A stretch of DNA of 64,000 nucleotides from Candidatus Omnitrophota bacterium (GTDB lineage Bacteria > Omnitrophota > Gorgyraeia > Zapsychrales > Fredricksoniimonadaceae): NCBI GenBank assembly GCA_044225175.1, contig JBGAJA010000003.1, forward strand, positions 69,428-133,427, given 5' to 3'. This document shows positions 6,679-26,829 of this stretch, piece after piece. A program made the translations under genes and the position numbers. Position 1 is the stretch's first letter. Every line of letters begins with the position of its first letter. The notes under the pieces were generated by a model. The model saw only the letters and a list, made by a program, of their open reading frames with translations, made no database searches and had not been told where the DNA came from.

Positions 6679-8181
6679 ATGATAAAGAAAATTATCTTTG
6701 CCCTGATTTTAATTTGGTTGGGCTGGCATTTGGCGCATCCAATTTATTTGATTCAAGCTGATTTGGGGCGACACATCAAAAATGGGGAGATGCTTTTTAA
6801 GGGAGTTTGGGAGGTTCTTTTTAGCAATTATTATTCTTATACGATTCCTCATTATCCTGTCATCAATCACCACTGGCTCTTTGGTATCTGTTCCTATCTT
6901 GTTTGGCTTTGTACTGGGTTTGCGGGACTTTCTATGGTGTATGTGGCCCTTGTTCTTATCGTGTTTGTTCTTTTTGTTTCAAGGGCACAGTCTATTTCAT
7001 TTCCTCTTCTATGCGCTTTTAGTCTAATAAGTTTTCCTCTGATATCTTCCAGGCCAGAAATTCGTCCAGAAGGCTTTAGCATGCTATTTTGCGGGCTCTT
7101 CTGGCTGTTAGCGGACTTATATAATCAAGGAAGACTGAAAGCCAATGGTTTTAAAATAGCTGTATTTTTCTTGCAGATCCTTTGGGTCAATTCTCATAGT
7201 TATTTTCCTTTAGGACCTGTAATGATGTTTGCTTTGTGGCTGCAGGCTAAGTGCAATCGTCAAGAACAAGCTAAGACCTTTTTGGAGAGTTATTTCATTC
7301 TTCTTTTTGCTTGTTTGATTAACCCTTCAGGGTTATCTGGAGCTTTGTATCCTTTGCAGGGAAGGGCAGGGCTTGGGTATTCGATTATTGAAGAGCAGTC
7401 ACTTGATCTCATGATGAAAGGCCATCCATCGGACTTAGTGTATCCCTATTTTATTGGTTCATTTGTATTTACTCTGCTTGGGCTGGGACTTCTAATTAAA
7501 AGACAGGGATTAAAGAAGCATCTTTTTATGCTTATTATGTTTGGGGTGATGTCTTATGCAGCCTTTAATGCGGTCAGATTTATTTCTCCATATGCATTTT
7601 TTTGGGTTCCTATTACAGTTTATTGCTGGGGACACTTGATTAATGCGTGGCCTGTGAATCTGCGAAAGATGGCAGCAGTGGTTCTTGTGATTTTCGGAGT
7701 TGTGACGGCAGCCTTTGTCAACTTTAGTCTTACAACTCCACCTGGATTTGGTCTTGTAAAGGGTAATAGCCAGGCAGGGGAATTCTTTAAGGCCGAGCGT
7801 TTAAAAGGACCTATCTTTAATAACTATGATATTGGCGGTTATCTTATATTTTATTTAAGTCCTCATGAGAGGTTGTTTGTTGATAATCGAGTGGAAGCCT
7901 TTCCAGCAGATTTCTTTAAGAAAATTTATGTGCCTATGCAGATCCATGATGAGGTATGGAAAATTTTGGATCATCAAATTGATTTTAATGTGATTTTCTT
8001 TGCCCGCGTCGATCAGACTCCCTGGTCATATGATTTTATTACTCGGCGCTTTGAAGACCCTAGCTGGGCGGTTGTGTTTATTGATGACAATGCTGTCATT
8101 TTGCTCAAGAGAAACCAACAGAATGCAGATGTTATCAAGAACCACGAGATCCTCGTCACTAAAAGACCTAAATCTTCCTAA
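6679..8181 (+). CDS. Polytopic inner-membrane protein (about 12 TM), function unknown, possibly a GT-C-like glycosyltransferase
   Basis: Strongly hydrophobic 500-aa ORF starting 6 nt after the ptsP stop, so it is in the same operon. No motif I can name. Confidence 0.5.
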   Translation: MIKKIIFALILIWLGWHLAHPIYLIQADLGRHIKNGEMLFKGVWEVLFSNYYSYTIPHYPVINHHWLFGICSYLVWLCTGFAGLSMVYVALVLIVFVLFVSRAQSISFPLLCAFSLISFPLISSRPEIRPEGFSMLFCGLFWLLADLYNQGRLKANGFKIAVFFLQILWVNSHSYFPLGPVMMFALWLQAKCNRQEQAKTFLESYFILLFACLINPSGLSGALYPLQGRAGLGYSIIEEQSLDLMMKGHPSDLVYPYFIGSFVFTLLGLGLLIKRQGLKKHLFMLIMFGVMSYAAFNAVRFISPYAFFWVPITVYCWGHLINAWPVNLRKMAAVVLVIFGVVTAAFVNFSLTTPPGFGLVKGNSQAGEFFKAERLKGPIFNNYDIGGYLIFYLSPHERLFVDNRVEAFPADFFKKIYVPMQIHDEVWKILDHQIDFNVIFFARVDQTPWSYDFITRRFEDPSWAVVFIDDNAVILLKRNQQNADVIKNHEILVTKRPKSS

Positions 8182-8724: not shown

Positions 8725-8864
8725 GTTTTAGATCGTCATGAAACTAGACTTTGTCACCAAAATCTGATATAAGATTACTCTTCCAACCTCAAGGAAATTA
8801 GATACAAGAGATGTAAGGGGTTGTTAAGGGGAACAAAAAACGCAGTTTTCTGAGAGCGAGTTTT

Positions 8865-8938
8865 GTCCCAGTAGCTCAGTTGGATAGAGCATCTGCCTTC
8901 TAAGCAGAGGGTCGCACGTTCGATTCGTGCCTGGGACG
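8865..8938 (+). tRNA. tRNA-Arg (anticodon TCT)
   Basis: GTCCCAGTAGCTCAGTTGGATAGAGCATCTGCCTTCTAAGCAGAGGGTCGCACGTTCGATTCGTGCCTGGGACG folds as a 74-nt cloverleaf with anticodon loop CTTCTAA. Confidence 0.9.
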
Positions 8939-8989
8939 TTTATATTTGTTGAGAATCGAAGCTGTTTTTGATATTCTAGTGCCTCTTGT

Positions 8990-9066
8990 GGTGGCTGTAG
9001 CTCAGTTGGTAGAGTACTTGATTGTGGTTCAAGTTGTCGCGGGTTCAAATCCCGTCAGCCACCCCA
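8990..9066 (+). tRNA. tRNA-His (anticodon GTG) with encoded G(-1) and 3' CCA
   Basis: G-1 plus GTGGCTGTAGCTCAGTTGGTAGAGTACTTGATTGTGGTTCAAGTTGTCGCGGGTTCAAATCCCGTCAGCCACC, then CCA. Anticodon loop TTGTGGT. The extra 5' G pairing with discriminator C is the tRNA-His hallmark. Confidence 0.9.
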
Positions 9067-10629
9067 TATTTCGTTTTTGAGGTATAAATCCTCCCAACCA
9101 GTTGTATTTGCAATAGTTTGCAGAGGTTCGAACCGGTTGTGGAGGATTTTTATTTCAGGAGCGAGTCCCAAAAGGAAAGAAAATTTTTGCTCGACGGTAA
9201 TATCAAGTTTTCGATCTTGTAAGAGAAGGTTCGAACTTAACTCCGCAGTAATACTTTGTTTGACCTGCCAGTCGCCTTCCTGAAACCGTTTTTTGGCCGA
9301 TTCTGCAAAGTTAAAGGCCTTTTCCGCCGCATCAATCCAATTAGGGCTAGAAGAAGCGTTTAAAGAAGACTCTAGGCTTTCTTTTTCTTTTAAGAGGGCG
9401 CTCCGTTTAGCCGCGTATTCTTCTGCAGTGATTTCTTCATTTACTCGGAGGCTGAGAAGGGTATCGAGTTTTCTTATCGCTGTTACCACCTTTTCTTGGA
9501 TGGCATTTTTGCTGTTAAGGGATGCGGTATCATCGTGTTCATTTTCTGCCCTTAGCTGTTTAATAGCCCATTGATGGAAAGGGAGAGGAATGGAAATTTG
9601 ATCCAAGACCCCCAAGATTTGTTGATCTATTTCATCATTGCGGACGGCGGGTTGAGAGCAATCACGATTGATGCGTTTGGTGCAATGGTAATAAGTATAG
9701 TTATGAATATTCCCGTTCTTTTGATGTTTTGTTCGATGCTCAGAAGTGATCGATGCGCCACATTCTCCACAGCGAACTAACCCTCTAAAAGCAAAACCGC
9801 CGCGTTTCTTCAGCTGTTTAACCCGACCGTCCAGAATATCTTGGGCAAGATCAAACTCCGCTTTTGAAATCATGGGTTCATGGACACCTTTATATCTTTT
9901 GCCTTGCCAATCGAATTCGCCATAATAAAAAGGATTTCTTAATATCCTATAAAAACTGCTACGACCAAATTCTTTTCCAGCTCTTCCTCTAAGGCCCATT
10001 TTGGTCGCTCTCAAATAGATTTGTTCAGCCGAACATTTTTCTTCTAACAGGATGTTCCAGACTTGTTTCATGATTGGAAAGAGGTGGGGATCCGAATAGA
10101 TGGGAAGGTGTTCCGGTAAATTATGGCGATTGTTTAAATAACCGATTGGAGGCTTATGGGGGAGCCAACCTTTCTCAGCCTTAGCCCGTTGACCACGTTT
10201 GGTATTTAGGCTTAGATCCAAGATAAACTGATTGGCCATCCCGAATTCGACACTCATCATTAAGACGTTATCGGAAGGAAGGTAGCCTTTTTGGAAGGTC
10301 TGGATGTGCTGTAGGACGCCTTGTTGAAGCATCCAGGTGATATTGCCGCCATCAACCGGATTACGTGCTAGGCGGTCTAGTTTCCAACACAGAATGCCAT
10401 TTGCTTTGCCCTCATGGATCTGCTGGAGCATTTGATTAAAAACTGTTCGACCTGGTGCTTTGGCAGACTTTTCTTCAGTGCAAGTGCCGATGATATTTAA
10501 ATTAAGGTCTTTAGCCAGTCTTTTGAGCTCTTCGATTTGGGAGGGAATAGATGCGACTTGCTTATCTTCATTTTCTGATGATTTGCGTGCGTACAGTAGG
10601 TATTTATTAGCTATAGATAAAGATGTCAT
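9055..10629 (-). mobile_element. Large serine recombinase (resolvase/invertase N-domain, recombinase domain and Zn-ribbon); island integrase
   Basis: The N-terminus LLYARKSSENEDKQVASIPSQIEELK carries the catalytic Ser context of serine recombinases. At 524 aa it has the large C-terminal extension. The gene's 3' end overlaps the last 9-12 nt of tRNA-His. Confidence 0.8.
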
Positions 10630-10799
10630 TTTTCAATACGTTTAAGTAATTTTAGTAGATCCGATTTCTTATATAAACGGTAATTGTTCATAGGATGCCG
10701 GTGGGGTGTTAATTTGCCTTGCTTGTCCCAATTTCGTAGTGTTTGACTGGTTATTTTAAGTAGTTTTGCAGCATCTTTGATGCGAAATAGTTCAGACAT
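10626..10799 (-). CDS. 57-aa MerR/excisionase-family HTH protein, candidate recombination directionality factor
   Basis: MSELFRIKDAAKLLKITSQTLRNWDKQGKLTPHRHPMNNYRLYKKSDLLKLLKRIEK. Its stop overlaps the recombinase start as ATGA. It is below the ORF-track size cutoff. Confidence 0.6.
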   Translation of the reverse strand: MSELFRIKDAAKLLKITSQTLRNWDKQGKLTPHRHPMNNYRLYKKSDLLKLLKRIEK

Positions 10800-10863
10800 T
10801 GGGATCTCCTAACCTTATAAAACATTATAAATTATAACTCGAGTTATCATTGTATTCAACGAC

Positions 10864-11361
10864 TTATTTTTGTGATTCTTTTAAATATGCTTTGGCTTCT
10901 TTAGGTGAATATCCATATTGGAAAAGACGTTCAAATTGGTGGCTGTTTCTGCAACTTTGGTAAGTTAAATCATGACAGTGTCTGCAACCAAAGTATTTAT
11001 CTACTAAATAAAGTATTCCCACGCGTTTTAGGCAAGGAACACTGTTCTTTACAAGGGGACAAATAAACCACCATTTTTTATCTCCTATAAAGTGGCTGGG
11101 GGTAGAGGTGAGTTTGACCTTGTAATCCATAGTATTTCGTCCATCCATTTCTTGATTTGTAAAAGTGTACATAAGGCGCATATATTTATCATTAGGATTA
11201 ATTGATATGATGAATTGAATGCTTCCTAATTCTTGACCAGAAGGGTCTTGCCAAGACATCACCCCTTTCTTTATGCCAGTAAAAAAGCCTTTTTTATTTA
11301 GTCTTACAGTACTTATGGAATTGCACTCTTCCACAGTTAATTTCTTAGCATGACGCCCCAT
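10864..11361 (-). CDS. Cys/His-rich hypothetical protein (possible Zn-binding)
   Basis: 165-aa ORF with CxxxxxxxxC and CRHCH clusters. No known family recognised. Confidence 0.4.
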   Translation of the reverse strand: MGRHAKKLTVEECNSISTVRLNKKGFFTGIKKGVMSWQDPSGQELGSIQFIISINPNDKYMRLMYTFTNQEMDGRNTMDYKVKLTSTPSHFIGDKKWWFICPLVKNSVPCLKRVGILYLVDKYFGCRHCHDLTYQSCRNSHQFERLFQYGYSPKEAKAYLKESQK

Positions 11362-11414
11362 TTGCGATCTCCTTTTTTCTAAATCATCGATGATTTATTT
11401 AATCTTATTTACTT

Positions 11415-12077
11415 TTATGTAACGCTATCTACTGTGCCGTTAAATGTTCTTTTGATTTCATGGATTTTCTTAAGACTTTCATCATCAATATCTTTAAGCT
11501 TTACCATTTCTTCATGCGTGTATATGATCCCATCTTCAAAATGGATACAACCGTCTTTAGACACAAAATGTAATTCCAGCTTCTCTGAGAAAAATCTTCT
11601 GGGGAGCTTTGGGACGTTTGGGACGGCATTAACAAGACTACTTTTCAAAGAGAAGTCAGCAGGTTTGGTTATAGATTCTTTTCGTGTGTGAGTCTCATTA
11701 ACATGTCCCAAGTGTCCCAACACATTCTTCTCAATGACCAATGGTTTATGTTTTTCTGCGGGTTTAATCTTCATTAAAGATCCAGTTCTTGGGTGAAGGG
11801 ATACTTTGTCATTTTTGGTAAAACTATTTTCTTTAATGCCAACAAGTGCGAATATTCGTTGATAATGATTTCCACCCTTGCCGCCGGCATTAACCACACA
11901 TCCAAATGCCCCAGTAGAAGCAACAAAAAGGTGGTTGCCTTTTTGATCATGCCCAGTCTCCGCGCAAGCCGGACACTGGGCAATGATATTATTTCCTTGA
12001 TGTTTGACTTTTGAAAGTTTACTGATGTCCAACATCTTTGAGCCTAACTTTTCTATAACCTTTATGGTCTTTTCCAT
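11415..12077 (-). CDS. Zn-ribbon protein (primase-type CPxC ... FGC zinc-binding domain) encoded downstream of the primase-helicase
   Basis: Motif AQCPACAETGHDQKGNHLFVASTGAFGCVVNAGG resembles the primase zinc-binding domain. The track ORF (to 12206) overlaps the upstream gene by 188 nt, so an internal Met start (12077 or 12035) is more likely. Confidence 0.45.
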   Translation of the reverse strand: MEKTIKVIEKLGSKMLDISKLSKVKHQGNNIIAQCPACAETGHDQKGNHLFVASTGAFGCVVNAGGKGGNHYQRIFALVGIKENSFTKNDKVSLHPRTGSLMKIKPAEKHKPLVIEKNVLGHLGHVNETHTRKESITKPADFSLKSSLVNAVPNVPKLPRRFFSEKLELHFVSKDGCIHFEDGIIYTHEEMVKLKDIDDESLKKIHEIKRTFNGTVDSVT

Positions 12078-14109
12078 TTCTGGGAATGGATCCAGATTTA
12101 GGTGTTGAGAATAATTCCAACATGTATTTTTCCAATTCTTTGGGAATAACGGTTGGAGGCTTTGGATTCCATTGTTTCTCAGCGCAGTATTCAGAATAGG
12201 CGTCAATGATTTCTTGAGTAGTTAGAGTAGAGGGGGCATCTTTTATTACTCTGTCATTGAGGAAATGTCTGATGCTATCGCTTTCTGATAACAACGCTTC
12301 TACGATGGATTTTTGATTATCTTCAAGGTGAATATCACCATATTTATTGATATCATTAAAGATCATAGCAAGGCCATGAAGCGCCCAATTCAGAATGCCA
12401 GATCCTTCTTCTTTGATGAGTAAATCTGCAAAATCAGGGATCTTTTTAATTGGAGGAGGGCATTCAAATCTTACTATTAAAAGACGCCGTCTCCAAGCGC
12501 CGGCATCAGAGTATAAGCGTATTTGAAGGCGAGAATTAGAGGTGATTACAACGCAGAATTTACCTTGGATTGGAAAATTTCCAGTTCCTCCTTTTTGTTC
12601 CGCATCAAACCAATCGCCACCGACTAACCCTTTGATAACGTGGGCACCTTTCTCAGAGAGGAAGTTCCCCGGAACATCAACTCCAACCAAGAGGGTTTTC
12701 TTTAAGTAACGATATAGTTCAAATCGTTCGCTGAGGTGTTTTGTACGTAATTCGGTAAAGTTTGCTCTTCCTATCAGATGTTGAATGATTAAAGATAATT
12801 GTGATTTTCCCCGACCAGATTCTCCATCAAGGATAAGGAATCGCTGAATAAGATTTCTTCCCAATAAGCAGAGGCCAAAATACTTTTGGATGATCGTTGA
12901 ATCAGACGCACTAACAGCAGGGAGGAGTAGTTCATTTAGGAATCTGGGGCATTTTGCATCTTTATCGTATGGGATTGGACATTGGTTTCTCGAATAAAAA
13001 TCAGGAGAGAAACTAACAAAATCTGCTTCATTGGTGTCGTTAAATACAATGATCCCATTTGCAAGATGTACAAATTTCTTATTTTCTTTGTCAAAGGCAT
13101 TTTGTTTTTCACTAATACCTTTTAATTGAGTGACGATATGAGTAAGGCAGGTGTTATACCTTTTTAATTCAAGTGATGGGATTTCTTGTTCGCGGGAGAC
13201 TTCCAATATTCTAGAAGAGATTTCTTGCTTAATTTGATCAATTGAGAGAGTCTCACGGAGGCCTGTTTCTGGATTATAAATATAGAAAGCCTTTTCATTA
13301 GGCTCAAAAAGTAAAATGTGTTCATGGTTGTACGTGCCCGCCCAAAAACATTCATTAATGGCGTAAACAATTCTTTTATCGTTTATATAATATGGTTCAC
13401 CGTAAAGATTAATTAATTCTTTGAGATCCCCCGTTGATTCTATTTCTTCAGACACTGTTTCTTTTTCAAGAGGGGGTTCATAGTAAGGCGTGTTTTGTAT
13501 TATTTCTTCGAAGTCTGATTTTTGTCCTCCAGCTTCTATCCAATCGGAAATATCTTTCACAGCAGTGTTGTTAATATCAGGTAATTCAATTATTTTTAGT
13601 TTGATCCCTTGGGGGGCTAATTTATTAGTAATATCAAATGCATGGTTACGTCCAACCTCATCTTTATCGGGCAGTATAATAACCTCCTGAGCGTCCTTAA
13701 TTGAATCTGTGTAGTTATTTTTCCATTTGCCAGCTCCCATGGCGCATGTAGTGGTAGCGTAACCCCATGAGGCAAGGTTATCTGCATCTTTTTCTCCCTC
13801 GCAAATAAAGATTGGTTGGCCCTGTTTAATCGCTTCAATTATTTCTGGTAAGTGGTATAAAACTGGTTCCACGGTCTCTAACCAGACTGCATTCGCTGAA
13901 GGAGGGGCAGACTTATCATTTGAACAATTCTTTATTAGCGAATAAGATCCCAAAGGCTCACGTTGTTCATACCAACCTTCATTACGTCCATAGGCAAAAA
14001 ATCCATTGCAGGGGCGCCCTTGAAAGAAATCTTTCTTGTCTGTGCGTAAAATTTGAAAAATAATATTTCCTCGAGTGTCTCTGTAGTCATACTTTTTTAC
14101 TATGTTCAT
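12019..14109 (-). CDS. Bifunctional DNA primase (TOPRIM) / SF3 (D5-like) helicase, replication protein of an integrative element
   Basis: TOPRIM motifs IFICEGEKDADNL and IILPDKDEVGRN; Walker A GESGRGKSQLSL in the C-terminal half. Confidence 0.75.
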   Translation of the reverse strand: MNIVKKYDYRDTRGNIIFQILRTDKKDFFQGRPCNGFFAYGRNEGWYEQREPLGSYSLIKNCSNDKSAPPSANAVWLETVEPVLYHLPEIIEAIKQGQPIFICEGEKDADNLASWGYATTTCAMGAGKWKNNYTDSIKDAQEVIILPDKDEVGRNHAFDITNKLAPQGIKLKIIELPDINNTAVKDISDWIEAGGQKSDFEEIIQNTPYYEPPLEKETVSEEIESTGDLKELINLYGEPYYINDKRIVYAINECFWAGTYNHEHILLFEPNEKAFYIYNPETGLRETLSIDQIKQEISSRILEVSREQEIPSLELKRYNTCLTHIVTQLKGISEKQNAFDKENKKFVHLANGIIVFNDTNEADFVSFSPDFYSRNQCPIPYDKDAKCPRFLNELLLPAVSASDSTIIQKYFGLCLLGRNLIQRFLILDGESGRGKSQLSLIIQHLIGRANFTELRTKHLSERFELYRYLKKTLLVGVDVPGNFLSEKGAHVIKGLVGGDWFDAEQKGGTGNFPIQGKFCVVITSNSRLQIRLYSDAGAWRRRLLIVRFECPPPIKKIPDFADLLIKEEGSGILNWALHGLAMIFNDINKYGDIHLEDNQKSIVEALLSESDSIRHFLNDRVIKDAPSTLTTQEIIDAYSEYCAEKQWNPKPPTVIPKELEKYMLELFSTPKSGSIPRNGKDHKGYRKVRLKDVGHQ

Positions 14110-17449: not shown

Positions 17450-18394
17450 TTGATGAATAAGAATTCTATTAAAAAACAATTAGCACAAGACCTGCCGGAT
17501 CGAATTAGATTTCTTTCTAGGAAGATTGCAAGAAAACCATCCTCATTTAGGTCAAGATGGGCCGTCTCTATAGATCAATCTTTTGATCTTTATACTAATA
17601 CAAGTACGGTCAATCTTATACAAAGCATCAATAATATGTTGGCTGAGGAAAATTGGCCTTTACCAGCATATCTTAATGCAAAGGGCGAAATATATAGACT
17701 TTCTCCTCTTCCAGGATTGATCAATTCTTTAAAGAGCTTCATTGGACTTAGCAGGCTTGTTTTAATTCTGATGTCTCTAAATGTTGGTCTAAATAAGAAG
17801 AAGACTTTTGATGCTCACATGTCTAACTTTTCTAGATTTTATGCAAAAGACATTTTCAGTGATTTAAAACTCAATCCTTTATTAAAAGAGAAAAGACTAA
17901 TTATTAATGAGATTGAGAAAGCGTATAGATTAAGAATGTGGGCAACATGTATTACTACTATGGTGCCTATATTTGATTTTGTTATGAGATCTTACTTTGG
18001 TTCTCAAGACCTGAAGATTTCTATTCAGACATTACGGGACGCTTTTGGAAAATCTGGTCTCAAGCCAAAAGATTTGAAGCCAGGTCATGCTATTTGGGAG
18101 GCGCGTGAAAATCCTCATAAAGGTAATACCTTTACCAAATCGATAGAAGAGGATCTTCGGCTTCCAGGCGTTTATTTATCTTCATTCTTTGAGTTCGCAG
18201 ATAGATACTACGGATGGTATGAATCTACGGATAACCCCGATGCTCTTCTCAATAGACATGCTATTATACATTGTTCTACAGGATGTTGGAACGAGCCTAA
18301 TGCGATCAGGCTGCTGACATTCTTAGATTTAACCCTTAAACTTGAGAATGTATTAAAAACTTTAATACATGGGGACACTTTTGTTGATACTTAA
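17450..18394 (+). CDS. Hypothetical protein, possible partner of the downstream DUF4238 protein
   Basis: 314-aa ORF. No recognised family. Confidence 0.45.
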   Translation: MMNKNSIKKQLAQDLPDRIRFLSRKIARKPSSFRSRWAVSIDQSFDLYTNTSTVNLIQSINNMLAEENWPLPAYLNAKGEIYRLSPLPGLINSLKSFIGLSRLVLILMSLNVGLNKKKTFDAHMSNFSRFYAKDIFSDLKLNPLLKEKRLIINEIEKAYRLRMWATCITTMVPIFDFVMRSYFGSQDLKISIQTLRDAFGKSGLKPKDLKPGHAIWEARENPHKGNTFTKSIEEDLRLPGVYLSSFFEFADRYYGWYESTDNPDALLNRHAIIHCSTGCWNEPNAIRLLTFLDLTLKLENVLKTLIHGDTFVDT

Positions 18395-18593
18395 ATAAGA
18401 TTAAACATTTAGTGAGATCCCGGTCTTGGAAATTTTTGTTTTTCAGAAGGGAAGATGCCCGACGGACTTTGTTACTAGGGTTTGTAATGAAACAACGTCG
18501 GTGTATGACTGTTTCAGTCATGGTGTAGCGTTCTAGACGGCTAACTTACCTCTCCCACAGACCTGATATTCACAAACAAGCAACGCGGAAAAT

Positions 18594-21098
18594 ATGGATA
18601 CAACCCGCAAAAATCATTATGTCCCTAAATGGTATCAGAAGCGATTCTTATCTTCGGAGAAGAGTGCTTTTCATTACCTGAATCTCAACCCATCTTTAAT
18701 TAAGATTTCTAATGGCACAAAGCTAAGCAAGGCTATTGACTGGCCGTGTAGTCCTAGACAATGTTTTTGGGAACAGGATCTTTATAACACGTCGTATTTC
18801 GGCTTTATTGATGATGAAATCGAAAGGCGTCTGTTTGGGGAAATTGATCGTACTGGGGCCAAAGCGATTGATGCCATGGCCGCTCAGGATATGAGGCGGA
18901 TGCACGCAACGTTCGAGGACTTCTTTGAGTATATTGATGGACAGAGAATCCGCACTCCCAAAGGGCTGGCATGGCTTAAATCTAAATATCCTAATCTGAC
19001 ACATAATCAATTGCTGATGGAAATGCAGCGTATACGGCAAATGCACTGCACCCTTTGGGTGGAGGCAGTTCGGGAAATAGTGTACGCGGACACTTCTGCT
19101 GTGAAGTTCCTTGTCTCGGACAATCCCGTTACTTTTTATAACCACGCTTGTAATCCTGATTCAGAAGAATGTCGTTACCCGGATGACCCAAGAATTGAGA
19201 TGAAAGCGACGCAGACCATTTTTCCTTTAGACAGCAATCGTTGCCTTATTTTGACCAATTTGGACTATGCTCGTAATCCAAATCTAGCGGATCCCAAGGC
19301 TTGGAGACCCAATGCTAATCCTTTTCGTCCGACTATGGGAAGAATTGATACAACGATTTGTGAGCGACACTTGCAAGATCACGAAGTGGTGGCTATCAAC
19401 TACATAATCAAAAGTAGGGCAAAGCAATACATAGCTGCGGAAAAAAGGGAATGGCTTGAGCCCGAGAAGATTTTTAAAGGCGATTGGAAAGTAGCGGGTA
19501 AGGTGTTATTGCCTCCAAAAGATGAGTTGCACCATTTCGGTGGAGAAATGTATGGTCAGTATGAAGATGGCCGATATTTCTATCGTGATGCGTATGGCAG
19601 AACTCATGGGGAAGCAGAACACTTAAAGAAAGATCCTCCAAAAGGCAAGATTGGTGCCAACCATCCTTGTACGTGCGGCAGTGGTAAGAAGTACAAGAAA
19701 TGTTGTCGTGATAAGGCTGAGGAAGATAGACCTTCTAGCTCCCAACGCAGTATTCGGGAGAGAAATTTGATGTTTTTCAGCATTGTCTCCAAGATTCTAG
19801 GACTTGAAGAAAATAATTGGACCGAAGTAAGAAGGCAACTTACTGACAAGAAGGTCGTTGATGTTCATAAGGCTGTTGCGGCATTGTGGCCTCCGGATAC
19901 GGACTTAATGGCTTTGCTACCGCGACCGGATGCCAAAGTTTCACGGGCTCTTTATTCAGGATTATTAGATCCCAGGGTCACATACAAAGATATTGCGGCA
20001 CTTTTGCCTTATGTGGACGAGATTTTGTTGATAAATCCATTTTTAAACCCAAATGTACTTCAGAAGAAATTTAATCCCATTGATAATCCTGCTCAATTTA
20101 GGTATGAAACGCTAAAGAATGTGCTTTTCTTAATGCCTTTGATGCCTTTGATCTCAGCCGGAAGGGTTAATGTGATTCCTGATCCCTTACATTTTAATCC
20201 TGCTTTAAGACAACAAATTTGGGCAGAAGCTGAAAAGCGTCGGGGAAAAGTTCAGATAGACGAAAAGATGATGAAATCAAATACAGAATTTGCAAAGGAT
20301 GACTTCAGGCGATTCATTTTTAGCGGTCCGGAAGATCGAATAAGGAGATTTGTTAAGAAAACAAATCCCGACATGACGGATGTAGAAATGGAGAAGTTTC
20401 TTGCTTATACACGGAAGCAGAACGAAGAAGATCCTCTCGTTTTGCTTGATCCAGCCACCGCTCAAGATGGTCAAGGCCAAGTCATGGTATTTCATCTAAA
20501 CCCTAATTTTGAATTAGGGATGTTTTTAGCTCAAGCGACAGGATCATTTATTGTCACATCCCATCCGTATAGATGGTCTGAGATTTGCTCATCAATAGAC
20601 TATTTCTATAGTGGTGCTCAATCAGCATGGGATCCTATCGCCAAATACATAATGGATTTTGAAATGGATTTTGCGCATTTCTCAGATCAAAGAGACTTTG
20701 TGTCTATGCTTAATGGCGGCGGGTTTCCAGACATGAAAAGCGCTTTAAGAAATGTCTGGAATATGGTGCAGACTGAAAGGCCCGTAGATGCTTCACAAAT
20801 AGACGGGCTTTTGAAAGATATTGACCATGGGCGAGAAAAAACGAAAGTGTCGATCGACAAACTAATGCAGCAGAAAAATGACGATCAGGCAGAATATTTG
20901 AGAGTAATAAAAACCAAAGCAAAGCTAAGTGCTAAGATTGCACCTGCTGGACATAGTACTAGTTTGGTGTATCGGCAGCTTTTGGCTCATGCGGGGCATG
21001 ATAAGTATCTAAAGGCTTTACCGTTGGCATTGTACATTGAACATGAAGAAATCAATGAAGATGGACTGGCTAAACAGCCAGAACAAGCGCCTTCTTAA
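18594..21098 (+). CDS. Large DUF4238-like N-terminal domain protein with an internal SEC-C metal-binding motif; candidate anti-phage/abortive-infection protein
   Basis: The N-terminus NHYVPKWYQKRF matches the HYVP..Y...F signature I associate with DUF4238. HPCTCGSGKKYKKCC at about aa 355 is a SEC-C motif. About 470 aa of unassigned C-terminal sequence follow. Confidence 0.55.
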   Translation: MDTTRKNHYVPKWYQKRFLSSEKSAFHYLNLNPSLIKISNGTKLSKAIDWPCSPRQCFWEQDLYNTSYFGFIDDEIERRLFGEIDRTGAKAIDAMAAQDMRRMHATFEDFFEYIDGQRIRTPKGLAWLKSKYPNLTHNQLLMEMQRIRQMHCTLWVEAVREIVYADTSAVKFLVSDNPVTFYNHACNPDSEECRYPDDPRIEMKATQTIFPLDSNRCLILTNLDYARNPNLADPKAWRPNANPFRPTMGRIDTTICERHLQDHEVVAINYIIKSRAKQYIAAEKREWLEPEKIFKGDWKVAGKVLLPPKDELHHFGGEMYGQYEDGRYFYRDAYGRTHGEAEHLKKDPPKGKIGANHPCTCGSGKKYKKCCRDKAEEDRPSSSQRSIRERNLMFFSIVSKILGLEENNWTEVRRQLTDKKVVDVHKAVAALWPPDTDLMALLPRPDAKVSRALYSGLLDPRVTYKDIAALLPYVDEILLINPFLNPNVLQKKFNPIDNPAQFRYETLKNVLFLMPLMPLISAGRVNVIPDPLHFNPALRQQIWAEAEKRRGKVQIDEKMMKSNTEFAKDDFRRFIFSGPEDRIRRFVKKTNPDMTDVEMEKFLAYTRKQNEEDPLVLLDPATAQDGQGQVMVFHLNPNFELGMFLAQATGSFIVTSHPYRWSEICSSIDYFYSGAQSAWDPIAKYIMDFEMDFAHFSDQRDFVSMLNGGGFPDMKSALRNVWNMVQTERPVDASQIDGLLKDIDHGREKTKVSIDKLMQQKNDDQAEYLRVIKTKAKLSAKIAPAGHSTSLVYRQLLAHAGHDKYLKALPLALYIEHEEINEDGLAKQPEQAPS

Positions 21099-21232
21099 TT
21101 GTCATATGGAGATTAGATTCTTTCCTTGGGGCAGGGGGCATGTTTCTTCTTTGCTATTTTTGGGGTTGAGAGTAAAATTACTTTATGATTAACATACTCA
21201 TGCAATTGAGCGTCTTTTAGTTATGGGAACTA

Positions 21233-22284: not shown

Positions 22285-22329
22285 TATCGCCCTGTCCCTA
22301 TTTAGGGGACTGGCCCTTTCTACTTTCTA

Positions 22330-22679
22330 CGTTATCTGGTAAGGCGTATATTTCTTTATTTAAAGAAGCTAAAGCCAAAGGTTACAGAATTACAGTTTTT
22401 TATTTAAGTATTCCAAGTAATAAGCTTGCTCAAGAGAGAGTGAAGCAGCGCGTTAAAGAGGGTGGGCATAATGTGCCAATAGTTGATATTAATAGGCGAT
22501 TTATTAGAAGTTGGCAGAATTTCATTAACCTTTATATGCCACTAACAGATTCTTGGTTGTTACTTGATAATTCAATGCTTAAACCAATTGAAGTAGCAAA
22601 ATGTGATCATGGTAAGATCAAAGTTTTGAATAAATCTTTATATAAAGAATTAATGGAGGGTAGAGATGACAAGTCTTAA
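22330..22679 (+). pseudogene. 5'-truncated paralog of the zeta-toxin-like ATPase gene (C-terminal ~110 codons only)
   Basis: Translation KEAKAKGYRITVFYLSIPSNKLAQERVKQRVKEGGHNVPIVDINRRF... aligns with the C-terminal half of the 23518..24090 protein (KEVKSKGYSVHIFFLWIPSEDLAKQRIKQRVKQGGHHVPDADVKRRL). The Walker-A N-terminal half is missing. Confidence 0.65.
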
Positions 22680-22833
22680 ATCTAGTACATTAATTTTAAA
22701 TAAAGCAGGAAAAGCAATGCGAAGTGCTGTACGTAAGGTTTTAGCAGAAAAGAAATTGAGAGGTGAGCCTGCTATTATTTGGAAGGATGGCAAGGTTGTA
22801 AAAGTCCCTGCAAGTCAATTAAGCAAAGCTTAA
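22666..22833 (+). CDS. 55-aa small protein, paralog A of the partner gene downstream of the zeta-like ATPase
   Basis: MTSLKSSTLILNKAGKAMRSAVRKVLAEKKLRGEPAIIWKDGKVVKVPASQLSKA, with SD GGAGGG 6 nt upstream. It is paralogous to 24087..24257 (shared core RGEPxIIWKxGKVVKxPA). Confidence 0.5.
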   Translation: MTSLKSSTLILNKAGKAMRSAVRKVLAEKKLRGEPAIIWKDGKVVKVPASQLSKA

Positions 22834-23517: not shown

Positions 23518-24090
23518 ATGCCTAAGCTTTATATAATTGCTGGTCCTAATGGCGCCGGAAAAACTACATTTGCTAAAGAATTTCTTCCTTCCTATGCGAA
23601 ATGTTCCAATTTTGTCAATGCAGATTTGATTGCGTTAGGTCTTTCTCCTTTCAGTCCAGCTCAAGTCAGTATTAAGGCTGGTAAATTGTTACTCGGTGAA
23701 ATCGATAATTTCATAATCCGTAAGATGGATTTCGCCTTTGAAACAACTCTCGCTGGAAGAACATATATAAATTTAATCAAAGAAGTTAAATCTAAAGGAT
23801 ATTCTGTACACATTTTCTTTTTGTGGATACCCAGCGAGGATTTAGCTAAACAAAGAATAAAGCAACGGGTCAAACAAGGTGGGCATCATGTGCCTGATGC
23901 AGATGTCAAAAGAAGGTTACGCCGTAGTCTGAAGAATTTTTTTAATCACTATAGTCCCTTGGTTGATGGATGGGACATTTTTGATAATTCCGGATCAGAG
24001 CCAAAATTGGTGGTTAAATCTAATGAAAAAGGGTTTCAGATTATTGATAAAGAACTTTATCGATATTTGCTCAACAAGGAGAACATATGA
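23518..24090 (+). CDS. Zeta-toxin-like / AAA_33-type P-loop kinase-fold ATPase
   Basis: Walker A IIAGPNGAGKTTFA. The overall fold matches zeta-toxin/UDP-GlcNAc-kinase-like proteins. 190 aa. Confidence 0.6.
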   Translation: MPKLYIIAGPNGAGKTTFAKEFLPSYAKCSNFVNADLIALGLSPFSPAQVSIKAGKLLLGEIDNFIIRKMDFAFETTLAGRTYINLIKEVKSKGYSVHIFFLWIPSEDLAKQRIKQRVKQGGHHVPDADVKRRLRRSLKNFFNHYSPLVDGWDIFDNSGSEPKLVVKSNEKGFQIIDKELYRYLLNKENI

Positions 24091-24257
24091 TTAAGAAAGT
24101 CGAAGGTGATGTTCTTTCTAAGAAAGCAGAAAAAGCCATGAAGAAGGCTGTGCAAGGTGTGATTGCAGACCGCAAAATGCGAGGCGAGCCTTTGATCATT
24201 TGGAAGAACGGTAAAGTTGTAAAGATTCCTGCTAAGGACTTAAAGCGGTTCGGATAA
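24087..24257 (+). CDS. 56-aa small protein, paralog B, translationally coupled (ATGA) to the ATPase
   Basis: MIKKVEGDVLSKKAEKAMKKAVQGVIADRKMRGEPLIIWKNGKVVKIPAKDLKRFG. Its start overlaps the ATPase stop. Its 3' end overlaps the att-like repeat. Confidence 0.5.
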   Translation: MIKKVEGDVLSKKAEKAMKKAVQGVIADRKMRGEPLIIWKNGKVVKIPAKDLKRFG

Positions 24258-25730: not shown

Positions 25731-25903
25731 CCGTTTGACGAAACGGCAAACCCATCGTAAGGTGGGGACCCTCATAGGCAGGTTCTATGAGGCCATGGCA
25801 AAATCCATGGGCAAAGCTATAGAGTCCTTAATTCAAAGGATAGTCAGCTGTCGAAACAAACAGTGTAACGACCTATTCTTTTATTTAAGGGATAGGTTTT
25901 TTT
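25731..25903 (+). promoter_or_regulatory. Structured 5' leader of the minor-pilin operon: four consecutive hairpins plus a terminator/attenuator; riboswitch-like
   Basis: H1 CCGTTT-gacg-AAACGG (25731-25746). GGCAAACC at 25745-25752 overlaps H1 and leads into H2 CCCATC-GTAA-GGTGGG (25751-25766, GNRA loop). H3 is CCTCATAG-gcaggtt-CTATGAGG (25770-25792). H4 is CCATGG-caaaat-CCATGG (25793-25810). Terminator stem at 25871-25896 followed by 7 T's at 25897-25903, 19 nt before the pilin ATG. Confidence 0.35.
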
Positions 25904-25921: not shown

Positions 25922-26302
25922 ATGAAAAGAAAAAATCAAAAAGGATTTACCCTGGTAGAAGTTATGGTTTCGGTTTTTATTGTTTTTATAACGATGGTGG
26001 GGACTCTGCAGCTATACGTGCATACTTCGCGCCTGGCGGAAATTGCTGGAGATAAGAGTATCGTTCTTAACGAAGCCCAAAATAAGATGGATGAAATTCG
26101 TAATACCGCCTTTAGTTTGATCGCCTCAACTTATCCTACAGGAACAACATTTGCTTTGCCCTCACAATTAACAGGAAGCGCCACGATTACCTTAGATACA
26201 TCTAACAGTAACATCTATGGTGTCACCATCACGATGACATGGAAGAATAAGAAAGGGTTCGGCTCAACGTTAACACTTGTTAGCAGGATTGCAAATAAAT
26301 GA
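25922..26302 (+). CDS. Prepilin-type N-terminal cleavage/methylation domain protein (PilV/GspH-like minor pilin)
   Basis: KGFTLVEVMVSVFIVFI prepilin signature. Confidence 0.7.
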   Translation: MKRKNQKGFTLVEVMVSVFIVFITMVGTLQLYVHTSRLAEIAGDKSIVLNEAQNKMDEIRNTAFSLIASTYPTGTTFALPSQLTGSATITLDTSNSNIYGVTITMTWKNKKGFGSTLTLVSRIANK

Positions 26303-26829
26303 TAAATACAAATAGAAACACTCAAGGAATCAGTTTGACGGAAATTTTGGTAACAGTGGCTTTATTGACGTTGCTTTCAGGAGGGGCAGTACAGCTTTTA
26401 ATAGTCGGCTCGGATTCTTATGTTGTTAACAAAAATAAAATAGAATTACAACAGGAGCTTCGAAAATCCGTCGATTGGATCAAAGAGGATTTGCGTCAGA
26501 CAGGTATAAATGGTTTGGTGAATATGAATACAGACACGACCTATACTCAAATCACTTTTCGTGTGGCTGTGGGAGCTGTGGCAGGTGGAACAACCACATG
26601 GTCAAACAACACGATTCAATATATGTTAGGGGGAACAGGAGGGGTACAACTGCGAAGGATCTCTGGTGCTACGACTCAAATTATTGCGCAGAATATAACC
26701 ACATTGCAGTTTAGACGCAATTCCAGCGCCCCCAATATTATTATTGTGACCATAACATCATCCAACAATCAGGGAAAAGGAGGAACAATTTCTCTTAATT
26801 ACAGTGCTAAAATAAATATACGTAATTAA
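26299..26829 (+). CDS. Prepilin-type minor pilin (PilW/GspJ-like)
   Basis: QGISLTEILVTVALLTLL prepilin signature. The start overlaps the upstream stop (ATGA). Confidence 0.6.
   Translation: MINTNRNTQGISLTEILVTVALLTLLSGGAVQLLIVGSDSYVVNKNKIELQQELRKSVDWIKEDLRQTGINGLVNMNTDTTYTQITFRVAVGAVAGGTTTWSNNTIQYMLGGTGGVQLRRISGATTQIIAQNITTLQFRRNSSAPNIIIVTITSSNNQGKGGTISLNYSAKINIRN

What the first reader, a model, noticed from the sequence alone, without database searches (positions are those of the whole stretch)
17450..21098. 834-aa protein combining a DUF4238-like N-terminal domain with an internal SEC-C motif and a long unassigned C-terminus, inside the island
The ORF begins NHYVPKWYQKRF, the N-terminal signature I associate with DUF4238, a family reported as a single-gene anti-phage system (Rst_DUF4238) in satellite and defence hotspots. 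At about residue 355 it carries HPCTCGSGKKYKKCC, a SEC-C-type metal-binding motif. About 470 further residues have no family I recognise, so the protein is far larger than typical DUF4238 proteins (about 300 aa). It sits in a mobile island behind a 200-nt structured leader and a 314-aa gene of unknown function. This architecture looks like an undescribed variant of a defence protein, possibly a two-gene system with 17450-18394.
Basis: partly seen in the sequence, partly recalled or inferred. Interest (0 to 1): 0.8.

Follow-up and report, generated by a model that had tools for sequence, protein, structure and literature searches.

The report
DUF4238–SEC-C fusion protein, candidate phage defence
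An 834-residue gene carried on a mobile island joins two modules of unknown function that also exist as separate proteins; one belongs to a domain family with a proven anti-phage member, so it is a plausible but untested single-gene defence protein, and it belongs to a widespread family that has not been studied.

Summary
ORF 18594-21098 (+) encodes 834 aa with a significant DUF4238 match (57.7 bits, cutoff 27) and a SEC-C zinc knuckle (C359/C361/C370/C371; 25.3 bits, cutoff 20.4). It lies in an island with a serine recombinase and a P4-type primase at tRNA-His.

Three parts of the interpretation fail. The 313-aa upstream gene is not a conserved partner. The 199-nt spacer is not a structured or conserved leader. 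The architecture is not a one-off: full-length ~800-850-aa relatives occur in several phyla, on conjugative plasmids (Aeromonas pAsa4b), in a Klebsiella islet and in prophage-type viral contigs.

The PADLOC DUF4238 defence model does not match it. A defence role rests on genomic context and on the one validated DUF4238 protein, and no experiment has tested it. Verdict: new variant of a known kind, moderate interest.

The parts
18594..21098 (+). 834-aa ORF: fusion of a DUF4238-type domain and a SEC-C-headed module
   Evidence: ORF list. An identical protein is called on two metagenome contigs. Full-length homologs at 40-65% identity. AlphaFold model with mean pLDDT 87.5 and pTM 0.87.
18609..19628 (+). 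N-terminal DUF4238-type domain (residues ~6-345), an alpha+beta fold. Invariant residues include E77, D85, R120, E143, E157, E161, D176, R238, D252, R258 and K273.
   Evidence: Pfam PF14022, 57.7 bits, two stretches. In viral homologs the C-terminal end of the profile matches at residues ~167-283. Invariant columns in 101 sequences. A standalone 390-aa relative, 41% identical over residues 1-346, lies beside a phage terminase gene.
19647..19709 (+). SEC-C zinc knuckle (residues 352-372; C359, C361, C370, C371). It forms the head of the C-terminal module.
   Evidence: Pfam PF02810, 25.3 bits. PDB profile hits only to SecA and YchJ C-terminal peptides. CxCx8C[CH] is kept in 100 of 101 homologs and in all viral and plasmid copies checked.
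19710..21068 (+). C-terminal ~450-aa domain (residues 373-825): a Rossmann-like alpha/beta core plus helical parts, with no curated family
18395..18593 (+). 199-nt intergenic spacer upstream of the gene, probably a promoter and 5' UTR. It is not a structured leader.
   Evidence: RNA fold z = -1.42. No Rfam match. Not conserved across 12 loci. GC 41.7%, like the gene and unlike the upstream gene. A weak promoter-like site lies at 18314-18342.
21122..21155 (+). Terminator-like hairpins just after the stop codon
   Evidence: Consensus scan. This is a pattern match only.
17453..18394 (+). Neighbouring 313-aa gene. It is an independent cargo gene and not a partner. It carries an invariant NRHAxxH (Rx4H, HEPN-like) motif.
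   Evidence: 74 homologs, no Pfam match. Alignment A2. No conserved neighbour. No viral copies.
9055..14109 (-). Island backbone: large serine recombinase (9055-10629), an HTH_17 gene, two unknown ORFs, and a P4-family primase (12019-14109). It abuts tRNA-His (8991-9066).
   Evidence: Pfam and PHROGs matches. tRNAs. The recombinase stop codon lies inside the tRNA-His 3' end.

Best explanation
The gene encodes a self-contained, horizontally mobile immunity protein, most likely anti-phage or anti-mobile-element. It belongs to a widespread family that has not been characterised.

Shown: it is a fusion of two modules that each also exist as separate proteins.
1. A DUF4238-type domain (residues ~6-345). 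One short member of this domain family is known to block phage T7 on its own.
2. A module (residues 352-825) that begins with a SEC-C zinc knuckle and continues into a ~450-aa alpha/beta-plus-helical domain.

Also shown: the gene needs no conserved partner and travels as cargo on islands, prophages, plasmids and IS-flanked islets.

Inferred: one module senses infection and the other carries out a toxic or inhibitory activity, so the protein acts by an abortive-infection-type response. My preferred assignment has three parts. The SEC-C-headed module is the sensor or regulator. Its zinc knuckle docks onto a partner protein, as SecA's knuckle docks onto SecB. Its Rossmann/HUP-like core binds a nucleotide, and the DUF4238 domain is the effector. 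This assignment is speculative, and so is the enzymatic chemistry.
For: Domain calls pass curated thresholds.

The family is conserved along its full length, with 56 invariant positions in 101 sequences spread over both modules. That points to a functional protein under selection.

Modularity:
- Standalone SEC-C-headed ~475-aa family: 200 proteins at E<=1e-10, homologous to residues 352-825 at hhalign probability 100%.
- Standalone 390-aa protein with only the DUF4238-type domain.

Single-gene behaviour: no recurrent neighbour.

Mobile or defence context in about 10 of 14 loci:
- AbiEi/AbiEii directly adjacent or nearby at two loci, HipA, and a tyrosine integrase.
- Type IIG RM, HKD-Snf2, MTase and SspH matches among neighbours.
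- A serine recombinase plus primase element in a CPR genome, like the one here.
- Opposite-strand insertion in a prophage tail module, and a copy next to a serine integrase.
- The Aeromonas salmonicida conjugative plasmid pAsa4b.
- A Klebsiella islet between a DUF3258 gene and IS3.

Patchy distribution: the closest relative among 5.8e9 proteins is only 65% identical.

Precedents:
- A single DUF4238 protein gives strong T7 resistance (PMC9122126).
- Rugutis, a protein described as an N-terminal SEC-C motif plus a fold with no PDB match, is a validated single-gene antiphage system. Phage terminase large subunit activates its toxicity (PMC11381338, PMC12184496).
- SEC-C-type knuckles recur in PADLOC defence models (E2, E1-E2, PDC-S12).
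Against: - There are no experimental data for this family.
- PADLOC's DUF4238-Pers model does not match it, and no PHROGs family does.
- No match in isolated phage genomes.
- Two sampled homologs sit among housekeeping or unremarkable genes: flagellar genes and FtsK in one, DinB in the other.
- Guilt by association is weak for genes on mobile elements, which also carry addiction, exclusion and regulatory genes.
- Homology to Rugutis could not be tested, and the lengths differ (359 aa against ~475 aa).
Confidence: 0.5

Rival explanations
1. It is a two-gene system. The 313-aa protein (17453-18394) and the 834-aa protein act together, for example a HEPN-like toxin with a DUF4238 sensor.
For: The genes are adjacent on the same strand with no predicted terminator between them. 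In one distant locus (L090) a 313-family gene lies directly downstream of a short 291-aa DUF4238 gene. The 313-aa family has an invariant Rx4H HEPN-like motif.
Against: None of the six 834-family loci whose gene tables were read has a 313-like neighbour. No long-family gene occurs in 48 loci of the 313-aa family. DUF4238 is not among the families recurring in 120 neighbouring ORFs, which span 185 families. Family sizes differ greatly: 74 proteins against up to 1,585. The 313-aa family is absent from viral contigs, while the 834-aa family is present. GC3 is 0.29 against 0.40, with a 199-nt gap.
Confidence: 0.05
2. It is a mobile-element maintenance or competition factor, not an anti-phage protein. 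Examples would be an addiction or post-segregational killing module, an entry-exclusion or anti-plasmid factor, or a regulator of element replication.
For: Nearly every informative context is a mobile element: islands with recombinase and primase, a conjugative plasmid next to traN, ICE cargo for the standalone module next to a TrwC relaxase and TraG, and prophages. Toxin-antitoxin-type genes are frequent neighbours: zeta-like genes here, HipA, AbiE, PIN/Phd.
Against: It is not linked to any particular backbone type or position, which is unlike dedicated replication or transfer genes. A standalone DUF4238 protein has shown anti-phage activity. The gene is large and has no small partner, which is atypical for addiction modules.
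Confidence: 0.2
3. It is a cellular housekeeping or stress protein tied to protein export or chaperones. The SEC-C knuckle would bind SecB or the ribosome as in SecA and YchJ, and the Rossmann/HUP-like domain would bind nucleotides as universal stress proteins do.
Confidence: 0.1
4. It is a decaying or non-functional passenger ORF.
For: Some relatives are disrupted: a frameshifted Phyllobacterium copy and truncated gene calls.
Against: The ORF is an intact 834 codons. It keeps all 56 positions that are invariant in 101 homologs and all four zinc ligands. The fold is predicted with confidence.
Confidence: 0.03

Closest known systems
Rst_DUF4238 (Rousset et al. 2022; PADLOC 'DUF4238-Pers'): a single-gene anti-phage protein from P2-like prophage hotspots in E. 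coli
   Same: Both have the Pfam DUF4238 domain with the N-terminal HYVP motif. Both are single genes without a partner. Both are cargo of mobile elements. The molecular function is unknown in both.
   Different: This protein is about three times longer. It adds a SEC-C knuckle and a ~450-aa domain. PADLOC's DUF4238-Pers model does not match it. Its DUF4238 part is extended and carries insertions relative to the 281-position Pfam profile. It sits in a serine-recombinase and primase island, not a P2 or P4 hotspot. No activity has been tested.
Standalone SEC-C-headed ~470-490-aa proteins, annotated 'SEC-C domain-containing protein' (Acidobacteria, Sedimentisphaerales, CPR bacteria and others)
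   Same: They are homologous to residues 352-825 over 470 columns, starting at the zinc knuckle (hhalign probability 100%, E 4e-115). They are also single genes in variable or mobile contexts, such as ICE cargo and toxin-antitoxin-rich regions.
   Different: They lack the DUF4238 domain. They share about 30% identity with this protein. They are uncharacterised too.
Rugutis (Lactococcus plasmid pUCCL633_059, 359 aa): a validated single-gene antiphage system
   Different: It is 359 aa against ~475 aa for the module. No similarity beyond the motif was detectable in Lactococcus plasmids by tblastn.
SecA C-terminal zinc-binding domain and YchJ (SEC-C motif, PF02810)
   Same: They share the CxCx8C[CH] zinc knuckle, and they are the best PDB sequence matches (9l6b_C, 1ozb_I, 1sx0_A). 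From established knowledge, in SecA this knuckle binds SecB.
   Different: Only about 20 residues are shared. The motif here is internal, at a domain junction, and not at the C-terminus. The rest of the protein is unrelated.

Membership tests
Pfam DUF4238 (PF14022) | Profile match above the gathering score (27 bits) | tested here: met
   57.7 bits, E 1.6e-15, two stretches. Viral homologs match both ends of the profile.
Pfam DUF4238 (PF14022) | Single-domain protein of roughly 240-310 aa (the typical family architecture, from my own knowledge of the Pfam entry) | tested here: not met
   834 aa, with a further 480-aa module.
Rst_DUF4238 / PADLOC DUF4238-Pers defence system | Match to the defence system's own HMM | tested here: not met
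   No PADLOC DUF4238 hit for the whole protein or for residues 1-349 at E <= 1, while a short DUF4238 control hits PDLC03000 at 2e-4. The DefenseFinder model was not available.
Rst_DUF4238 / PADLOC DUF4238-Pers defence system | Works as a single gene | tested here: met
   No conserved neighbour across 13 homologous loci. This shows genomic independence only, not function.
Rst_DUF4238 / PADLOC DUF4238-Pers defence system | Demonstrated protection against phage | not testable with these tools
   Needs cloning and a phage challenge.
SEC-C motif (PF02810) | Profile match above the gathering score (20.4 bits), with four zinc ligands CxCx8C[CH] | tested here: met
   25.3 bits at residues 358-372. 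C359, C361, C370, C371. The pattern is kept in 100 of 101 homologs.
SEC-C-headed ~475-aa module family (unnamed) | Homology across the whole module, from the zinc knuckle to the C-terminus | tested here: met
   hhalign probability 100%, E 4e-115, 470 aligned columns. phmmer hits to ~450-500-aa proteins start near their residue 40-50, and those proteins have an N-terminal SEC-C motif.
Rugutis antiphage system | Sequence or structural homology to pUCCL633_059 | not testable with these tools
   The sequence is not in the held text or supplements. No Lactococcus plasmid hit beyond the motif.
Two-gene operon with the 313-aa gene | Conserved co-occurrence of the two families | tested here: not met
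HEPN superfamily (for the neighbouring 313-aa protein only) | Rx4-6H motif in an all-alpha domain | tested here: inconclusive
   NRHAxxH is invariant in 21 sequences. There is no Pfam or PDB profile support, and no structure was predicted.
Structured cis-regulatory leader RNA | Folding energy beyond shuffles, a known family, or conservation | tested here: not met
   z = -1.42. No Rfam match. No conservation.

The most novel reading that the evidence does not exclude
The long DUF4238/SEC-C family is a new, widespread class of single-polypeptide immune proteins, built by fusing two autonomous immunity modules whose folds have no solved relative. The SEC-C-headed module would be the same kind of sensor as in Rugutis and would recognise a conserved phage machine such as the terminase large subunit. 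The zinc knuckle would act as a docking or latch element, and the DUF4238 domain would be an effector with new chemistry. If so, both DUF4238 and the SEC-C-headed proteins become open to mechanistic study through a natural fusion, and clinically relevant plasmids (Klebsiella, Aeromonas) carry an unrecognised defence gene.
Probability: 0.3. Interest if true: 0.65.

Novelty: new variant of a known kind. Interest (0 to 1): 0.45.

Why it matters
DUF4238 is one of the few validated single-gene anti-phage proteins whose domain still cannot be assigned to any known family. This analysis shows that a large clade of DUF4238 proteins is permanently fused to a second autonomous module headed by a SEC-C zinc knuckle. 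That module also circulates alone on mobile elements, and in layout it resembles the validated Rugutis system.

A natural fusion of this kind is a classic pointer to functional coupling. It gives experimenters a defined construct, lists of invariant residues in each module, and a confident structural model to work from.

The family is missed by PADLOC and PHROGs, so current defence-annotation pipelines would not flag it, even on Klebsiella and Aeromonas plasmids. If the protein has no defence role, the result still corrects the annotation: it is not a two-gene system and it has no leader RNA.

Tried and rejected
1. Genome-collection scan with the family alignment. The SEC-C pattern swamped it and only two true relatives were recovered, so I switched to exact-protein context look-ups.
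4. PDB sequence-profile searches for the long family, the 313-aa family and the standalone module: only SEC-C peptides matched.
5. Rosetta-stone test, asking whether standalone SEC-C-module genes sit next to standalone DUF4238 genes. This was not seen for the three standalone-family members looked up (seven places). An unannotated 283-aa neighbour is not DUF4238.
6. The Phyllobacterium 'split' gene is a frameshifted copy, not a natural two-gene form.
7. Search for att direct repeats of the tRNA-His region: none of 12 nt or more at a plausible position, so the right island end is not mapped.
8. Attempts to obtain the Rugutis sequence failed.
9. The source organism could not be named.
10. Isolated-phage genomes hold no relative of the N-terminal domain.
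Full report
**1. Observation.** The window holds ORF 18594..21098 (+), 834 aa, beginning MDTTRKNHYVPKWYQKRF. It is preceded by ORF 17450..18394 (+), which is 313 aa from the ATG at 17453.

- Pfam gives DUF4238 (PF14022) at 57.7 bits against a gathering score of 27, in two stretches.
- Pfam gives SEC-C (PF02810) at 25.3 bits against 20.4, at residues 358-372. The zinc ligands are C359, C361, C370 and C371.
- Residues beyond ~373 match nothing in Pfam, NCBIfam, PADLOC or PHROGs.
- The 313-aa protein matches no family.

So the sequence-level description is correct.

**2. Island.** tRNA-Arg and tRNA-His lie at 8864-9066.

- A large serine recombinase (9055-10629, minus strand; Resolvase/Recombinase/Zn_ribbon_recom; phrog_95 integrase) ends inside the 3' end of tRNA-His.
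- It is followed by an HTH_17 gene, two unknown ORFs and a P4-family primase (Toprim, D5_N, DUF5906; TIGR01613 at 102 bits).
- The plus-strand cargo from ~15.4 to ~24.3 kb holds a DUF4429-SHOCT protein, a BamE-like protein, unknown ORFs, the two genes of interest and a duplicated zeta-like kinase/small-ORF pair.
- Housekeeping-type genes resume after ~24.4 kb: glyoxalase, pilins, PEP carboxylase.
- No long att repeat was found, so the right end is approximate.

**3. The leader.** Three checks argue against a structured leader.

- The 199-nt spacer has an MFE of -50.4 kcal/mol against -44.5 +/- 4.2 for shuffles (z = -1.42; 18 of 200 shuffles fold as well).
- It has no Rfam match at E <= 0.1.
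- Upstream regions of 12 homologous loci share nothing but the start codon.

**4. The two-gene idea.** Co-occurrence does not support it.

- The 834-aa protein has up to 1,585 database hits at E <= 1e-3. Some of these may match the SEC-C motif only. The best 120 score at least 714 bits, and most are full-length proteins of ~800-855 aa. The 313-aa protein has 74 hits.
- Six homologs of the 834-aa protein on long contigs have no 313-like neighbour.
- In 48 loci of the 313-aa family, HMMs of both halves of the long protein find nothing.
- A Pfam census of 120 neighbouring ORFs gives 185 different families, and DUF4238 is not among the recurrent ones. The only DUF4238 neighbour seen is a short 291-aa protein in L090.
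- The 313-aa family is absent from IMG/VR, while the long family is present.
- The 834-aa gene and its spacer have GC 42% (GC3 0.40). The 313-aa gene has GC 35% (GC3 0.29).

The two genes are neighbours by accident of cargo accretion.

**5. Architecture.**

- The long family is conserved end to end. Across 101 sequences at 40-65% identity there are 56 invariant positions spread over both halves.
- A phmmer search with residues 377-834, which excludes the SEC-C motif, against 1.84 billion cluster representatives gives 608 hits at E <= 1e-3 and 418 at E <= 1e-10.
- Besides ~800-aa fusions there is a recurrent class of ~450-500-aa proteins in which the match begins near residue 40-50. Those examined start with a SEC-C motif at 34-39 bits and have no DUF4238 domain.
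- A profile search found 200 such proteins at E <= 1e-10. Sources that name them call them 'SEC-C domain-containing protein'.
- hhalign of this family against the long family gives probability 100%, E 4e-115, over 470 columns that begin at the zinc knuckle (residues 352-825).
- Conversely, a 390-aa protein with only the DUF4238-type domain, 41% identical to residues 1-346, lies beside a terminase gene on a viral contig.

The 834-aa protein is therefore a fusion of two autonomous modules. The 'internal SEC-C motif' is the head of the second module.

**6. Structure.**

- With 21 sequences the N-terminal domain modelled poorly (pLDDT 30-50). With 101 sequences the model reaches mean pLDDT 87.5 and pTM 0.87.
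- The N-terminal domain is alpha+beta. The C-terminal module has a parallel-sheet alpha/beta core (strands near 451, 476, 525, 651 and 689) plus helical parts.
- Foldseek against the PDB finds nothing at E <= 0.001.
- PDB sequence profiles match only SecA and YchJ zinc peptides.

Neither module has a solved relative, so the chemistry cannot be read from homology.

**7. Context of homologs.**

- L083: type IIG RM, HKD-Snf2, ParB-MTase and a large DEAD/MZB helicase.
- L086 and L087: IS elements, two AbiE pairs, HipA, and a tyrosine integrase directly downstream.
- L136: RadC, AbiEi/AbiEii, M78 peptidase, Multi_ubiq plus a ThiF E1.
- L138 (CPR bacterium): serine recombinase, primase zinc ribbon, HTH/M78 pair, resembling the island here.
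- L140: opposite-strand insertion between tape-measure and tail-fibre genes of a prophage.
- L139: tail-fibre and portal genes nearby. L141: a serine integrase nearby.
- Klebsiella pneumoniae: between a DUF3258 gene and IS3, flanked by core genes.
- Aeromonas salmonicida pAsa4b, a conjugative plasmid: next to traN.
- L085 and L137 show no mobile or defence hallmarks.
- A further 11 plasmids carry copies annotated 'DUF4238 domain-containing protein'.
- Isolated phage genomes have none.

The picture is of a sporadic, horizontally moving, single-gene cargo that is often, though not always, among defence genes.

**8. Comparison with known systems.**

- The only functional datum for DUF4238 is that a single-domain protein from a P2 hotspot gives strong T7 resistance, with molecular function unknown (PMC9122126). 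A 2024 survey still lists Rst_DUF4238 among systems that could not be assigned to a known domain family.
- PADLOC holds a DUF4238-Pers model. The short L090 protein hits it, but the window protein does not, even at E <= 1. The window protein is therefore in the DUF4238 superfamily but not in the validated defence family as PADLOC models it.

**9. Mechanism.**

- Shown: the domain composition, the fusion of autonomous modules, independence from neighbours, carriage on mobile elements, and conservation.
- Inferred: an immunity function, a division of labour between sensor and effector, and an abortive-infection-type outcome.
- Speculative: that the zinc knuckle docks a host or phage partner as in SecA-SecB, that the Rossmann-like core binds a nucleotide, and that DUF4238 is the effector.

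I put about 0.5 on 'defence or conflict protein acting alone', and much less on any specific chemistry.

**10. Verdict.** The interpretation needs correcting on three points: partner gene, leader, and uniqueness. It can be sharpened on one: the SEC-C motif and the C-terminus form a single autonomous module. This is a new variant of a known kind, namely a DUF4238 protein fused to a SEC-C-headed module. It is a reasonable candidate for experimental testing, but it is not exceptional among the many candidate defence genes. Interest 0.45.

Noticed in passing
window 25781-25855 (+): Match to the c-di-GMP-I riboswitch over the full model (33.2 bits, just under the gathering score of 35; E 0.0031). 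It lies about 65 nt upstream of two pilin-like ORFs with N-terminal methylation motifs (25922-26302, 26299-26829).
   Followed up: no
window 22290-22833 and 23518-24257 (+): Tandem duplication of a zeta-toxin/AAA_33-like kinase gene followed by a small ORF. The upstream copy lacks its N-terminal part (46% identity over 72 aa, E 1e-22), and the small ORFs (55 and 56 aa) are clearly homologous. This looks like a toxin-antitoxin-type pair with one decayed copy.
   Followed up: partly
window 8991-9066 and 9055-10629: The serine recombinase ORF ends inside the 3' end of tRNA-His; its last codons are the reverse complement of the acceptor stem. This suggests integration at the tRNA-His 3' end. No direct repeat of 12 nt or more marks the other island end.
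   Followed up: partly
window 17453-18394 (+); alignment A2: The 313-aa protein belongs to a small family (74 database proteins) with an invariant NRHAxxH motif near the C-terminus. That fits the Rx4-6H signature of HEPN RNases. It has no Pfam or PDB support, and its neighbours elsewhere are heterogeneous but include mad3, RtcR-CARF, IetA, DRT and BrxL matches.
   Followed up: partly
L090 5557-7597: In a Desulfovermiculus MAG, a short 291-aa DUF4238 gene is immediately followed by a member of the 313-aa family and then by an Mrr_cat gene. It is a single case and not recurrent, but it is the only hint of any link between the two families.
   Followed up: partly
L143 7944-9113: A viral contig encodes a 390-aa protein with only the DUF4238-type domain, 41% identical to residues 1-346 of the window protein. 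It is divergently adjacent to a terminase large-subunit gene.
   Followed up: partly
L224 1049-8434: A standalone SEC-C-headed module gene sits as cargo directly downstream of a TraG/TrwB coupling protein and a TrwC relaxase. A conserved 283-aa unknown ORF lies between them and is not related to DUF4238.
   Followed up: partly
L083 ~7800-8001: The gene call for homolog P0018 (793 aa) is truncated at the 5' end. DNA upstream of its annotated start encodes the family's N-terminal TRQNHYVPKWYQKRF motif.
   Followed up: no
L222 5974-8425 (Phyllobacterium zundukense plasmid): This family member is annotated as two genes (a DUF4238 protein and a hypothetical protein), but one continuous tblastn match crosses the gap between them. 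It is most likely a frameshifted copy or a sequencing error.
   Followed up: partly
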